From Escherichia phage DaisyDussoix: a DNA stretch of 64,000 bases. Below the pieces are notes generated by a model. The model saw nothing but the letters and a program-made list of their open reading frames with translations. It did not search any database and was not told the DNA's origin. The stretch is from the sequence record MZ501058. One strand, written 5' to 3'. The position numbers and the translations under genes were made by a program. Of the stretch, positions 36,566 through 39,327 are shown piece by piece; the first letter of the stretch is position 1; each line of letters begins with the position of its first letter.

Positions 36566-36600
36566 TTTGCTAAACGCTTCAAAATTCTGTATAATAGATT
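36557..36600 (+). promoter_or_regulatory. T5-type sigma70 promoter driving ORF-free RNA region
   Basis: AAAAATTGATTTGCTA-N17-TATAAT. Confidence 0.55.
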
Positions 36601-37454
36601 CATAAATTAGAGAACAGCGAGCCGATTACGCTGAGTGAGTTTAGTGATTCCTAATAGGATAGCTATCCCACTGAATAGAGTCGGTGAGTTGGAGACTAGT
36701 AAGTACTCTTAGAGAGGCTACGAGCTAACGCTTATTGCTATTGATAGGGAACTGAAAATCTGCGGAAAACTCGGGAGCTGTCCCGAAATCTCGTAAACTC
36801 TTCTCTAGTTTATGTTAGTGGGGTGTCGAACTGACTTATGTGATAACACTGCCGTCCTAGTATAAACGGTAATATCAAACCGTAACTGGTGGAAGATGCA
36901 GGTTCGAATCCTGCGGTCGGAAAGAATCAGATAACTCGGGCTTATACCGGATAAGCATTCGCTGCTGTAGTACATACTATGACGGTTCAGGAGGTACGCC
37001 GCCTGATCAGTATTAGGTTAGAATCGAAACAGCTAAACCACGAGGAAACCTGACGGCCTCAATCAAACTCGGAACTCGGGATCACTGCCTAGTGTGTGCC
37101 CCGTTTAACCTGAGACTAGGCATCCAGCTTCGCATCGAAAATCGGAGGTGCGATTCTAACAGACCGCGTGAATATGAGAGTGGGAAATGCTGACATGAGA
37201 GATGTCACTAATGGTGCCCAATAGTACAGGTAATTCGCGATAATTCCTGTTGAGCGGCAGCAGTAGGCTGGGAGTCATGACCTAAGCCTAACCGAGTTCT
37301 TCACATACGGAGAACATAACCACAAAGTCACCCTGACTTAAACTGGAGGATATTATCTGACGGAAGGGCTGCAGAGCTTAATCTGAGGGGGCTGACCCTA
37401 CCTACCGTCGGGTATCTTTAAGAGCTTTTATAAGAGTTCTTAAAAATACCTAAA
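36601..37454 (+). ncRNA. candidate structured ncRNA / degenerate tRNA region (no ORF of 60 aa or more on either strand)
   Basis: 850 bp ORF-free directly after a strong promoter; tRNA T-arm copy at 36898-36914 without matching acceptor stem. Confidence 0.3.
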
Positions 37455-37529
37455 CGGGGTGTAGTCTAAGGGATAGGCAGGAGTCTTCTAAATTCCTTTA
37501 TGCAGGTTCGAATCCTGTCACCTCGGCCA
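37455..37529 (+). tRNA. tRNA-Arg (anticodon UCU)
   Basis: manual cloverleaf: acceptor CGGGGUG/CACCUCG, anticodon loop CUUCUAA, T-loop UUCGAAU, CCA encoded. Confidence 0.6.
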
Positions 37530-37555: not shown

Positions 37556-37756
37556 GTGAAAACACGATATATAGTAAAAGTAGTAGGTGAACATTCACAA
37601 GTAAATACCACCGATGTTACAGCGCTAGCATTTGAAGTAGTCTCCGGTATAGTCATATTTCATAACGGAGATATCAAAGCTCCTGAATTTGCTGTGGATG
37701 CTAGCCTGTTTATTTCTGCAACTAAAGTAACTGTAGTAGCTAACTCTTCTAAATAA
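37556..37756 (+). CDS. hypothetical beta-rich small protein (possible NfeD-like partner of SPFH protein)
   Basis: GTG start with AGGAAA RBS; 66 aa immediately upstream of SPFH gene. Confidence 0.4.
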   Translation: MKTRYIVKVVGEHSQVNTTDVTALAFEVVSGIVIFHNGDIKAPEFAVDASLFISATKVTVVANSSK

Positions 37757-37767
37757 TAAGGAAATAT

Positions 37768-38712
37768 ATGTTTACTAAAAATATGAAAGAACTGACTTCT
37801 GAGCAAAAAGTAATTCGCACTATTAAACGTTGGGGTATTGGTGCTGTAGTTGGTTTAGCAGGTTTAATCCTAGCTTTTAATTCATATACTATTGTTTCTG
37901 ATGGTACGGTTAAAACCCAAACATTTCTTGGTAAAGTAGATCCTAATCCAGTATTACCTGGTTTCCATCTTGTAAACCCATTTGCATCTTTCGATACTTT
38001 TAGTACAAAAGATATTGCTGTAAAATTAGATAAACTTCAGGTTCCTAGCCAGGATAAGTTTAAATCCACTGTTGACCTGACTGTTATGTTGCAGTTTGAC
38101 GGTTCTAAGGCACCGATCAACCGTATTAATGCAGGTACTCAGGATCAGGCTCTAGATAAGTACGTAACTGAAAAATTACTGTCTACTATTCGTGAGTTTG
38201 GTAAGTCTGTACCTAAAGCACAAGATTTATTTGATGCTAAAATTCAGGCTCAATTGCAAACTGCAATTCAACAGGAAGTTGAAGAGTATGCACGCCCTTA
38301 TGGTTACACAGTTAAGCAAGTGTTCCTTCAGGATATTACGTTGCCACCGGTAATCATGGAACAGGTACAAAATACCAAAGTTCGTGAAGAACAGGTTAAT
38401 GCTGCGAAAGCTGAGTTGGCTCGTGTTGAACAAGAAGCACAGCAGAAGGTTAAACAAGCAGAAGCAGATCGTGAAGCTCGTAACAACCAAGCTATTGCAA
38501 ACGAACGTGATGCAGATGCTAAACTGTACGCAGCTAAGAAAGAAGCCGAAGCTAACGCCGCGCTGCAACGTACTATTACTCCTGAGATGATTCGCTGGAA
38601 ACAACTAGAAGTTGAAATGATTCGTGCTCAGAAATATCAAGGTGGTGTACCGCAAACAGTGGTTGGCACTGGTTATGATGGCCAGATGATTATGGATATG
38701 CGTAACAAGTAA
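37768..38712 (+). CDS. SPFH/band-7 (stomatin/prohibitin-like) membrane protein
   Basis: N-terminal TM (WGIGAVVGLAGLILAF), band-7 core, long Ala/Glu/Gln coiled-coil tail. Confidence 0.6.
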   Translation: MFTKNMKELTSEQKVIRTIKRWGIGAVVGLAGLILAFNSYTIVSDGTVKTQTFLGKVDPNPVLPGFHLVNPFASFDTFSTKDIAVKLDKLQVPSQDKFKSTVDLTVMLQFDGSKAPINRINAGTQDQALDKYVTEKLLSTIREFGKSVPKAQDLFDAKIQAQLQTAIQQEVEEYARPYGYTVKQVFLQDITLPPVIMEQVQNTKVREEQVNAAKAELARVEQEAQQKVKQAEADREARNNQAIANERDADAKLYAAKKEAEANAALQRTITPEMIRWKQLEVEMIRAQKYQGGVPQTVVGTGYDGQMIMDMRNK

Positions 38713-38735: not shown

Positions 38736-38770
38736 AAACCCTGTGTTCCCTGGAGAGCGCAGGGTTTTTC
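38736..38770 (+). terminator. intrinsic terminator
   Basis: AACCCUG...CAGGGUU + UUUUCUGU. Confidence 0.55.
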
Positions 38771-39327
38771 TGTATAACGTATTTATAAAATCAACTAGGA
38801 GATCAAATATGAGTGTTGATGAGTTGACCCGGCACCTTCTATCTAGAGGGTTTGATACAGATAAATATCATTGCTGGTTAAGTCCGGAAGGATGGCTAAC
38901 AGTCCCGTTGTATGATTTCTCTGGGATGTTGAGGGGCTATCAGACGTATAATCCTTCTGCTCCAAAAGGTCATGGTAAGTGTCCCTTTGAGGCTAAATAT
39001 TTTACCTACTCTACTACCCAGTGTGTATGGGGACTAGAAACTCTCAATGGAGATGAAAAAGTAGTATTGATTGCTGAATCTGTATTTAAGGCAGTTGCAT
39101 TACATAATGCTGGTTATCCAGCCCTAGCAATGTTGGGTTCTACCCCAGGAAAAGCGTTATTAAAGCAACTGAAATTACTACCTTTTAAATTGGTAGCTGT
39201 CGGGGATAATGATCCTGCGGGTGAAAAATTTGCTAGAAAATTAAACGGCTTTGTTTCTCCTGTAGATGTGGATGAGATGTCTACCGAAAACTTGAAAAAT
39301 TTTCTTGCTATGAAGCTAAATTTCTAA
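38743..39327 (+). CDS. TOPRIM-domain protein (likely start ATG about 38809)
   Basis: VVLIAESVFKAVAL ... LVAVGDNDPAGEKFARKL TOPRIM-like E/DxD pattern. Confidence 0.45.
   Translation: MFPGERRVFLYNVFIKSTRRSNMSVDELTRHLLSRGFDTDKYHCWLSPEGWLTVPLYDFSGMLRGYQTYNPSAPKGHGKCPFEAKYFTYSTTQCVWGLETLNGDEKVVLIAESVFKAVALHNAGYPALAMLGSTPGKALLKQLKLLPFKLVAVGDNDPAGEKFARKLNGFVSPVDVDEMSTENLKNFLAMKLNF

What the first reader, a model, noticed from the sequence alone, without database searches (positions are those of the whole stretch)
37556..38712. SPFH/band-7 membrane protein preceded by a small beta-rich ORF (NfeD-like pairing?) inside the tRNA region
The 314-aa product has an N-terminal TM segment, a band-7 core and a long coiled-coil tail. 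SPFH proteins usually occur in two-gene operons with an NfeD partner; the 66-aa beta-rich ORF 37556..37756 immediately upstream may be a minimal OB-fold partner. A membrane-scaffold module is unexpected in a lytic phage early region and could modulate host membrane proteases or defence systems.
Basis: partly seen in the sequence, partly recalled or inferred. Interest (0 to 1): 0.45.

Follow-up and report, generated by a model that had tools for sequence, protein, structure and literature searches.

The report
Known phage SPFH gene, no NfeD partner

Summary
Both ORFs are real. The window is a T5-like phage (Demerecviridae). ORF 37768-38712 is an SPFH/Band-7 protein: Pfam PF01145 E=1.9e-17, and its AlphaFold model matches full-length erlin, prohibitin, HflK/C and QmcA cage subunits. 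It is the homologue of T5.080 (PHROG 200) and occurs in 724 phage records, including T5-like and T4-like phages. It has been labelled SPFH since 2006, so it is not unexpected in a lytic phage. The common "lipoprotein" label is unsupported, because the protein has no cysteine.

The 66-aa ORF 37556-37756 is a real coding gene: it has an SD site, variation concentrated at third codon positions, and a 49%-identical homologue at the same position. It shows no NfeD signal, whereas a YbbJ control scores 3.5e-12 against Pfam NfeD. It has no transmembrane segment and no significant fold match. It precedes SPFH in only 192 of about 435 T5-like records and in none of the other SPFH-bearing phages. T5 and AKFV33 lack exactly this 202-bp cassette.

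The positive-inside rule places the SPFH domain in the periplasm, as in HflK/C, a class without NfeD partners. The likely role is an early-expressed inner-membrane cage; its target is unknown. Interest is low to moderate.

The parts
36567..36595 (+). Sigma-70/T5-type promoter-like site (TTGCTA-17-TATAAT) just after the YqeY-like gene. Likely start of the transcription unit; positional counterpart of T5 promoter P16-17.
   Evidence: Consensus scan, 10 of 12 matches. T5 annotation places promoter P16-17 at the equivalent place upstream of RNAX, tRNA-Arg and T5.080. Function is inferred.
36596..37454 (+). ORF-poor leader about 860 nt long, equivalent in position to T5 'RNAX' stable RNA. Contains a tRNA-like element at 36851-36922.
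   Evidence: Only short ORFs here. Rfam tRNA 29.3 bits at 36851-36922, not called by ARAGORN. T5 annotation: RNAX, stable RNA of unknown function.
37455..37529 (+). tRNA-Arg (anticodon TCT), 26 nt upstream of the small ORF.
   Evidence: ARAGORN; Rfam tRNA 49.3 bits.
37556..37756 (+). 66-aa accessory gene (PHROG 11609). Soluble, no transmembrane segment, predicted beta-rich. Lineage-restricted and fast-evolving; not NfeD-like.
   Evidence: ORF with AGGA Shine-Dalgarno site. PHROG 11609 E=2.5e-48. 12 of 17 variable sites are at the third codon position, and the start is ATG at the same position in other phages. A 49%-identical homologue, P0124, sits in the same position. No NfeD signal.
37768..38712 (+). 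314-aa SPFH/Band-7 membrane protein, homologue of T5.080 (PHROG 200). Layout: cytoplasmic N-tail 1-23, transmembrane segment about 24-42, SPFH core about 40-191, long helices 194-269 and 272-289, C-terminal strands 299-309.
   Evidence: Pfam PF01145 E=1.9e-17. PHROG 200 E=1.6e-86. AF2 pLDDT 76.5. Foldseek matches to erlin, prohibitin, HflK/C and QmcA, E 1e-14 to 1e-9.
38736..38777 (+). Rho-independent terminator-like hairpin (13-bp stem) plus T-run, ending the unit.
   Evidence: Terminator scan. AKFV33 and T5 annotate a terminator at the same place after the SPFH gene.

Best explanation
The locus is an early, accessory transcription unit of a T5-like phage: promoter, RNAX-like leader, tRNA-Arg, 66-aa gene, SPFH gene, terminator.

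The SPFH gene belongs to a phage-borne clade (T5.080 / PHROG 200) that has moved horizontally among T5-like, T4-like and other lytic phages of Gammaproteobacteria. Its product is anchored in the host inner membrane by one N-terminal helix. The short basic N-tail is predicted to be in the cytoplasm and the SPFH domain in the periplasm, which is the HflK/C-type orientation. Like other full-length SPFH proteins, it most likely assembles through its long helices and C-terminal strand into a homo-oligomeric ring or cage that encloses a patch of inner membrane.

By analogy with HflK/C, prohibitin and QmcA, it would sequester or gate a host membrane protein, with FtsH-type quality control as the leading candidate. 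Alternatively it could stabilise the membrane during infection.

The 66-aa gene is a separate cytoplasmic accessory gene. It was inserted as a 202-bp cassette with its own ribosome-binding site between tRNA-Arg and SPFH in the Epseptimavirus lineage. The junction between the two genes is a recombination boundary in this window. It is not an NfeD-type partner.

Shown here: gene structure, family membership, fold, distribution and the cassette indel. Inferred: topology, oligomerisation, early expression and the target.
For: SPFH identity and fold: Pfam Band_7 E=1.9e-17. PDB sequence hits to QmcA and prohibitin. The AF2 model (pLDDT 76.5) has a transmembrane helix, an alpha/beta core, a 76-residue helix, a second helix and C-terminal strands. 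Foldseek matches full-length cage subunits at probability 1.0.

Phage clade and horizontal spread: 724 phage records. T5-like are at least 90% identical, Slopekvirus/RB43 76-80%, Grimontviridae 75%, Aeromonas T4-like about 60%. The closest relatives in a 5.8-billion-protein database sit on phage-sized contigs.

Accessory status: the gene is absent from BF23 (PMC12752171).

Topology: K+R count is 3.5 before the transmembrane segment against 1.7 after it, and 22 of 27 family members have more on the N side.

Transcription unit: promoter-like site and terminator, matching the T5 annotation P16-17, RNAX, tRNA-Arg, T5.080, terminator.

Small ORF as a real gene but not a partner: third-position bias 12 of 17 sites. 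AKFV33 and T5 lack exactly this cassette. 192 of about 435 T5-like records have the junction. The window and phage smaug differ at 0 of 201 nt in the small ORF but at 14.5% of positions in SPFH. All NfeD tests were negative, with a positive control.
Against: No experiment bears on function; papers up to 2026 state that the role of phage SPFH proteins is unknown (PMC12752171, PMC13239085).

The topology rests only on the positive-inside rule. By sequence, the closest solved relative is cytoplasm-facing QmcA, not HflK/C.

Oligomerisation was not modelled. No FtsH-contact feature could be tested.

The small ORF is never seen away from SPFH (192 of 193 records) and has kept its position in a lineage where it has diverged to 49% identity. 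A functional link is therefore not excluded.

The small-ORF model is too poor (pLDDT 50.5) to rule out a divergent OB-like fold.
Confidence: 0.6

Rival explanations
1. The 66-aa protein is a minimal, highly divergent NfeD-like (OB-fold) partner that binds the SPFH cage.
For: The two genes are adjacent (11-nt spacer) and co-directional. The small ORF is always next to SPFH when present (192 of 193 records). It is syntenic even at 49% identity. It is predicted to have five strands, and its size is compatible with an OB barrel. Some NfeD homologues are known to be barely recognisable by sequence (PMC2636767).
Against: No Pfam NfeD hit at E<=10 while the YbbJ control scores 3.5e-12. hhalign probability is 0.1%. 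No transmembrane anchor. No fold hit at E<=0.001 and no OB or NfeD among the top 50. The ORF is absent from about 56% of T5-like SPFH carriers and from all other SPFH-bearing phage lineages. Small neighbours in other lineages are unrelated. The predicted topologies are opposite: small protein cytoplasmic, SPFH domain periplasmic. It evolves about 4-5 times faster than SPFH.
Confidence: 0.07
2. The SPFH protein is an exclusion or counter-defence factor. An early membrane cage would block DNA entry by superinfecting phages, or blunt membrane-targeting abortive-infection effectors, rather than regulate FtsH.
For: It is an early-region accessory gene that has been moved horizontally among unrelated lytic phages. 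In T4-like phages it sits in the variable tk-rI region beside the lysis-inhibition genes rI and rI.-1. The fast-evolving small neighbour is typical of arms-race loci.
Against: No PADLOC or defence-family hit. The SPFH protein itself is highly conserved, with an invariant VPSQDK motif and 57-98% identity across the aligned homologues (A2), unlike typical arms-race proteins. No experimental data were found.
Confidence: 0.15
3. The SPFH protein works with phage NAD+ salvage, for example by scaffolding the PnuC transporter or NMN adenylyltransferase at the membrane.
For: SPFH is followed directly by a NadR-type NMNAT plus PnuC in Epseptimavirus. It is followed by a non-orthologous NadM/Nudix-type NMNAT in Slopekvirus KP15 and in RB43.
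Against: This window, T5, AKFV33 and Shivani have SPFH without adjacent NAD genes. 44RR2.8t, IME13, vB_CsaP_009, LAh_8 and Ahp1 also lack them nearby. Both sites are hypervariable accessory regions, so two adjacencies could be chance.
Confidence: 0.05

Closest known systems
Phage T5 gene T5.080 (YP_006908.1) / PHROG 200 'lipoprotein' / 'SPFH domain-containing protein' of T5-like and T4-like phages (RB43ORF139c, 44RRORF098c)
   Same: Same family and same genomic position (tRNA-Arg, then SPFH, then terminator). PHROG 200 E=1.6e-86. 99.7% identical to proteins of sequenced T5-like phages.
   Different: In this window and in Epseptimavirus an extra 66-aa gene sits between tRNA-Arg and the SPFH gene. 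The 'lipoprotein' name does not fit: no Cys, so no lipobox.
E. coli HflK/HflC (periplasm-facing SPFH cage around FtsH; PDB 7WI3, 7VHQ, 9CZ2)
   Same: Single N-terminal anchor, predicted N-in/C-out topology, SPFH core, long wall helix and C-terminal cap elements. Foldseek E 1e-11 to 1e-8. No NfeD partner.
   Different: One gene rather than a heteromeric pair. Sequence similarity to HflK/C is too low for HMMER to detect. FtsH binding is untested.
E. coli QmcA-YbbJ (SPFH-NfeD complex, PDB 8Z5G) and archaeal stomatin-NfeD operons
   Same: QmcA is the closest solved sequence relative of the phage protein (E=1.8e-6 for the single sequence, 2.8e-7 for the profile). Both are two-gene, co-directional arrangements.
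   Different: YbbJ has transmembrane helices and a PF01957 OB domain; the 66-aa ORF has neither. QmcA faces the cytoplasm, whereas the phage protein is predicted to face the periplasm. In E. coli the nfeD gene lies downstream of qmcA.
Prohibitin / erlin cages (PDB 8RRH, 9O9Z, 9VVJ)
   Same: Best structural matches over the full length (Foldseek E about 1e-14 to 1e-12; TM about 0.5-0.6).
   Different: These are eukaryotic organellar complexes with only 16-19% sequence identity. The similarity is a shared architecture, not orthology.

Membership tests
SPFH / Band 7 superfamily (Pfam PF01145) | Sequence match to the Band_7 profile above the gathering threshold | tested here: met
   64.3 bits against a 23.6-bit cut-off, E=1.9e-17, residues 51-224.
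SPFH / Band 7 superfamily (Pfam PF01145) | N-terminal membrane anchor followed by an alpha/beta SPFH core, long coiled-coil helices and a C-terminal strand (cage-subunit architecture) | tested here: met
   KD19 1.79 at residues 24-42. AF2 elements H11-37, core 40-191, H194-269, H272-289, E299-309. Foldseek probability 1.0 to erlin, prohibitin, HflK/C, stomatin and QmcA.
SPFH / Band 7 superfamily (Pfam PF01145) | Assembly into a multimeric ring or cage on a membrane | not testable with these tools
   Only monomer prediction was available. Needs cryo-EM, negative stain or multimer modelling.
SPFH-NfeD two-gene operon | Partner carries the NfeD C-terminal OB-fold domain (PF01957) | tested here: not met
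   No hit at E<=10, while the YbbJ control scores 3.5e-12 in the same search. hhalign probability 0.1%. No OB or NfeD fold hit, although the model is of low confidence.
SPFH-NfeD two-gene operon | Partner is membrane-anchored by transmembrane helices | tested here: not met
   KD19 maximum is 1.39 (1.20 in homologue P0124) and the segment contains D and E. YbbJ control scores 2.05.
SPFH-NfeD two-gene operon | Partner gene co-occurs and co-evolves with the SPFH gene across the clade | tested here: not met
   The small ORF is in 193 of 724 SPFH-bearing records, all T5-like. It is joined to SPFH in 192 of about 435 T5-like matches. It is absent in T5 and AKFV33. Identity across lineages is 49% for the small ORF against 89% for SPFH.
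SPFH-NfeD two-gene operon | SPFH protein belongs to a subfamily that has NfeD partners (SPFH1/2/5 per PMC2636767; the E. coli members QmcA and YqiK are predicted cytoplasm-facing per PMC10434171) | tested here: inconclusive
   The positive-inside rule predicts a periplasmic domain (22 of 27 members), but the closest solved sequence relative is QmcA.
HflK/C-type FtsH modulators | Type II topology with a periplasmic SPFH domain | tested here: inconclusive
   Supported only by charge bias: K+R 3.5 before the transmembrane segment against 1.7 after it. No experimental topology.
HflK/C-type FtsH modulators | Hetero-oligomer of two paralogous SPFH subunits | tested here: not met
   A single SPFH gene in the locus. 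tblastn gives one place per phage record: 725 places in 724 records.
HflK/C-type FtsH modulators | Physical association with FtsH and an effect on its substrates | not testable with these tools
   Needs pull-down or substrate-stability assays.
Bacterial lipoprotein (the RefSeq/PHROG label) | Signal peptide ending in a lipobox with an invariant Cys | tested here: not met
   Zero Cys in the window protein and in 23 of 27 family members.

The most novel reading that the evidence does not exclude
The phage SPFH clade is a single-gene, periplasm-facing mimic of HflK/C that lytic phages deploy early. It would take over inner-membrane quality control (FtsH access) or shield the membrane from abortive-infection effectors. 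The fast-evolving 66-aa protein would be a new, non-NfeD regulator acting on the cytoplasmic N-tail of the SPFH protein.
Probability: 0.12. Interest if true: 0.6.

Novelty: already known. Interest (0 to 1): 0.22.

Why it matters
SPFH proteins are universal membrane organisers whose bacterial roles are still poorly defined. A conserved single-gene version has been carried by hundreds of lytic phages and exchanged between unrelated phage families, so it could be a simple handle on what an SPFH cage does in the E. coli or Salmonella inner membrane.

For this finding the main value is corrective. The gene is ordinary for T5-like phages. The 'lipoprotein' label that propagates through databases is wrong. 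The proposed NfeD pairing should not be carried forward into annotation.

Tried and rejected
(1) NfeD identity of the small ORF. Tested with Pfam at E<=10 with a YbbJ positive control, hhalign against YbbJ, Foldseek of the AF2 model, phmmer of YbbJ against the six-frame translation of the window, and tblastn of YbbJ against all phage records, which found only a 1.7-kb fragment that looks like host DNA. All were negative.

(2) Distant homologues of the small ORF. The word-indexed search found only near-identical proteins. Exhaustive HMMER found one true homologue, P0124. The high-scoring hit P0123 is an AHNAK-like eukaryotic repeat protein, and P0126 and P0127 are repeat proteins with a 'DATAxAxDIVSGKxAYxNG' motif. 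I judged these repeat-inflated local matches rather than homology.

(3) A conserved small partner in other SPFH-bearing phages. The neighbours 44RR ORF099c, ORF097c, CsaP_009 ORF27 and RB43 rI.-1 are unrelated to each other and to the 66-aa ORF.

(4) An SPFH+NMNAT cassette transferred as a unit. Rejected, because the T5-like and T4-like NMNATs are not orthologous.

(5) Defence or anti-defence family membership. No PADLOC or NCBIfam hit for either protein.

(6) Literature on function. Searches found no experimental work on phage SPFH proteins and no mention of T5.080.

(7) The extreme DNA conservation of the small ORF between the window and smaug (0 of 201 differences) was considered as a sign of an RNA-level element. 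It was rejected. Within Epseptimavirus the small ORF diverges at the same rate as SPFH (7.0% vs 7.0%, 4.0% vs 3.8%) with third-position bias, so the pattern reflects a recombination junction.

Full report
**What is there.** The window is a T5-like phage (Demerecviridae). The 1.6-kb region matches 454 phage records, almost all Salmonella or Escherichia T5-like phages. The surrounding 11 kb carries 23 tRNA genes. Both ORFs exist as described. ORF 37556-37756 has a GTG start, encodes 66 aa, and has an AGGA Shine-Dalgarno site 7 nt upstream. ORF 37768-38712 has an ATG start, encodes 314 aa, and has an AAGGAA site upstream. tRNA-Arg ends 26 nt before the small ORF, and the two ORFs are 11 nt apart.

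A T5-type promoter-like site (TTGCTA-17-TATAAT) lies at 36567-36595. A strong terminator-like hairpin lies at 38736-38777. In phage T5 itself the homologous stretch is annotated as promoter P16-17, then stable RNA 'RNAX', tRNA-Arg, T5.080 and an efficient bidirectional terminator. The unit is therefore most likely an early transcript carrying RNA genes and these two ORFs. This is inferred from the T5 annotation.

**The 314-aa protein is an SPFH protein.** Pfam Band_7 scores 64.3 bits against a cut-off of 23.6, E=1.9e-17. PHROG 200 gives E=1.6e-86. Sequence search of the PDB finds QmcA (1.8e-6) and prohibitins.

An AlphaFold model built from 27 homologues has mean pLDDT 76.5. It shows an N-terminal helix (11-37), an alpha/beta core (40-191), a 76-residue helix (194-269), a second helix (272-289) and short C-terminal strands. 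Foldseek matches it over its full length to cage subunits of erlin, prohibitin, HflK/C, stomatin and QmcA, with E from 1e-14 to 1e-9 and probability 1.0. The hydrophobic segment is at residues 24-42 (KD 1.79), and the tail is 62% A/E/K/Q/R.

The widespread RefSeq/PHROG name 'lipoprotein' is unsupported. The protein has no cysteine, and neither do 23 of 27 relatives.

**It is not unusual for a lytic phage.** tblastn finds the protein in 724 phage records:
- about 440 T5-like phages at 80% identity or more
- Slopekvirus, Pseudotevenvirus and other T4-like phages at 76-80%
- Grimontviridae (92-kb phages) at 75%
- Aeromonas T4-like phages at about 60%
- Vibrio and other phages at 30-35%

In a 5.8-billion-protein database the closest 120 clusters sit mostly on phage-sized contigs. 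The family alignment is highly conserved, with an invariant VPSQDK motif. The SPFH domain in RB43, 44RR2.8t and Aeh1 was tabulated in 2006 (PMC1524935). The T5 record already links T5.080 to those ORFs. Many GenBank records call it an 'SPFH domain-containing/band 7 protein'. It is an accessory gene, absent from BF23 (PMC12752171). Recent papers still say its role in phages is unknown.

**The 66-aa ORF is a real gene.** Across six phages, 17 sites vary and 12 of them are third codon positions. The start is ATG at the same position in TrudiGerster, rokbiter and AKM_HA2021_32. It matches PHROG 11609, a family of unknown function. Exhaustive HMMER against 1.8 billion representatives found one true distant homologue, P0124 (63 aa, 49% identity, E=5e-10). 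That homologue lies 8 nt upstream of an 89%-identical SPFH gene in divergent T5-like contigs. The small gene therefore evolves roughly 4-5 times faster than its neighbour.

**It is not an NfeD-like partner.**
- There is no Pfam hit at E<=10, while E. coli YbbJ in the same search hits NfeD at 3.5e-12.
- hhalign against YbbJ gives probability 0.1%.
- There is no transmembrane segment: KD19 maximum 1.39 against 2.05 for YbbJ.
- The AF2 model has five strands but pLDDT 50.5. It has no PDB match at E<=0.001 and no OB or NfeD fold among the top 50.
- No YbbJ-like sequence exists elsewhere in the window. Among phage records the only match is a 1.7-kb fragment that looks like host DNA.

**The pair is not conserved.** The small ORF occurs in 193 records, all T5-like and all at 90% identity or more. 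A junction probe shows it fused to SPFH in 192 records. About 240 other T5-like records match only from window position 37758 onward.

T5 and AKFV33 go from tRNA-Arg to the SPFH start in 34 nt. The alignment shows a clean 202-bp indel carrying the small gene with its own RBS. T4-like, Grimontviridae, Aeromonas and Vibrio carriers have unrelated neighbours.

Within Epseptimavirus the two genes diverge in step (7.0% vs 7.0%, 4.0% vs 3.8%). In this window, tRNA-Arg plus the small ORF are 100% identical to phage smaug, while the SPFH gene differs at 14.5% of positions and is instead 95% identical to AKFV33. A recombination junction therefore lies at about 37757-37782.

**Topology and mechanism.** Family-wide, K+R residues are enriched before the transmembrane segment (3.5 against 1.7; 22 of 27 sequences). 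This predicts an N-in orientation with the SPFH domain in the periplasm, as in HflK/C.

NfeD partners are documented only for subfamilies SPFH1, 2 and 5, and not for HflK/C or prohibitin-like groups (PMC2636767). [quoted passage not shown] The soluble, signal-less 66-aa protein would be on the opposite side of the membrane from the SPFH domain.

My best-supported model is an early-expressed, homo-oligomeric SPFH cage on the periplasmic face of the inner membrane. It would enclose or gate a host membrane component, with FtsH-type quality control the leading candidate by analogy. Membrane stabilisation or exclusion are alternatives. Family, fold and distribution are shown. Topology, oligomerisation, timing and target are inferred.

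**Verdict.** The SPFH call is right. The NfeD pairing and the 'unexpected' framing are not supported. The gene is an already-known, already-annotated phage family of unknown function, so interest is low to moderate.

Noticed in passing
window 36566-37454: An ORF-poor stretch of about 890 nt lies between a T5-type promoter-like site and tRNA-Arg. It is positionally equivalent to T5 'RNAX', annotated as a stable RNA of unknown function. It contains a tRNA-like element at 36851-36922 (Rfam tRNA 29.3 bits, at the gathering score) that ARAGORN does not call; the smaug record annotates a 'tRNA-OTHER' upstream of tRNA-Arg in the equivalent leader region (correspondence not checked by alignment).
   Followed up: partly
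window 38743-39327 (probable true start ATG 38809): A small Toprim-only protein, the T5.076 homologue, is labelled 'DNA primase' in RefSeq. It has only weak matches: TIGR00646 5e-5, DnaG TIGR01391 0.033, and PADLOC DRT 'RTasDnaG-like' 6e-7. The primase label looks like over-annotation. BF23 lacks both this gene and the SPFH gene.
   Followed up: no
L001 5216-6950 (smaug); L003 5077-6138 (KP15); L006 4061-5119 (RB43); L014 8143-9907: The phage SPFH gene is followed by an NMN adenylyltransferase in two unrelated phage groups. In Epseptimavirus it is a NadR-type enzyme plus PnuC. In the T4-like phages KP15 and RB43 it is a NadM/Nudix-type enzyme. The two enzymes are not orthologous (BLASTP E=6e-4 over 33 aa). 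This could be coincidence in hypervariable regions or a hint of a link to NAD+ salvage.
   Followed up: partly
window ~37757-37782: Recombination junction. To the left, tRNA-Arg plus the small ORF are 100% identical to Epseptimavirus smaug. To the right, the SPFH gene is 14.5% diverged from smaug, about 95% identical to Tequintavirus AKFV33, and 99.7% identical at protein level to EC122 and PS3-1.
   Followed up: yes
L003 3218-3914; L006 2211-2739; L019 4600-5359: In T4-like phages the SPFH gene sits in the variable tk-rI region, next to or near the lysis-inhibition genes rI and rI.-1.
   Followed up: no
window 37556-37756 (residues ~8-39): There is weak local similarity to a repeated 'DATAxAxDIVSGKxAYxNG' motif in the repeat proteins P0126 and P0127 (P0127: Pfam DUF7409 just below threshold). 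The E-values are inflated by the repeats, so this was not taken as homology.
   Followed up: partly
P0002 (Salmonella phage vB_SenS_SB6 small ORF): One natural variant of the 66-aa protein carries an in-frame 3-residue duplication (EFA) after residue 43. This suggests the loop around residues 40-46 tolerates insertions.
   Followed up: no
window 37768-38712 and database labels: PHROG 200 and many RefSeq records name this family 'lipoprotein', and one record names it 'modulator of FtsH protease'. The protein has no Cys and therefore no lipobox, so the lipoprotein name is a propagated misannotation.
   Followed up: yes
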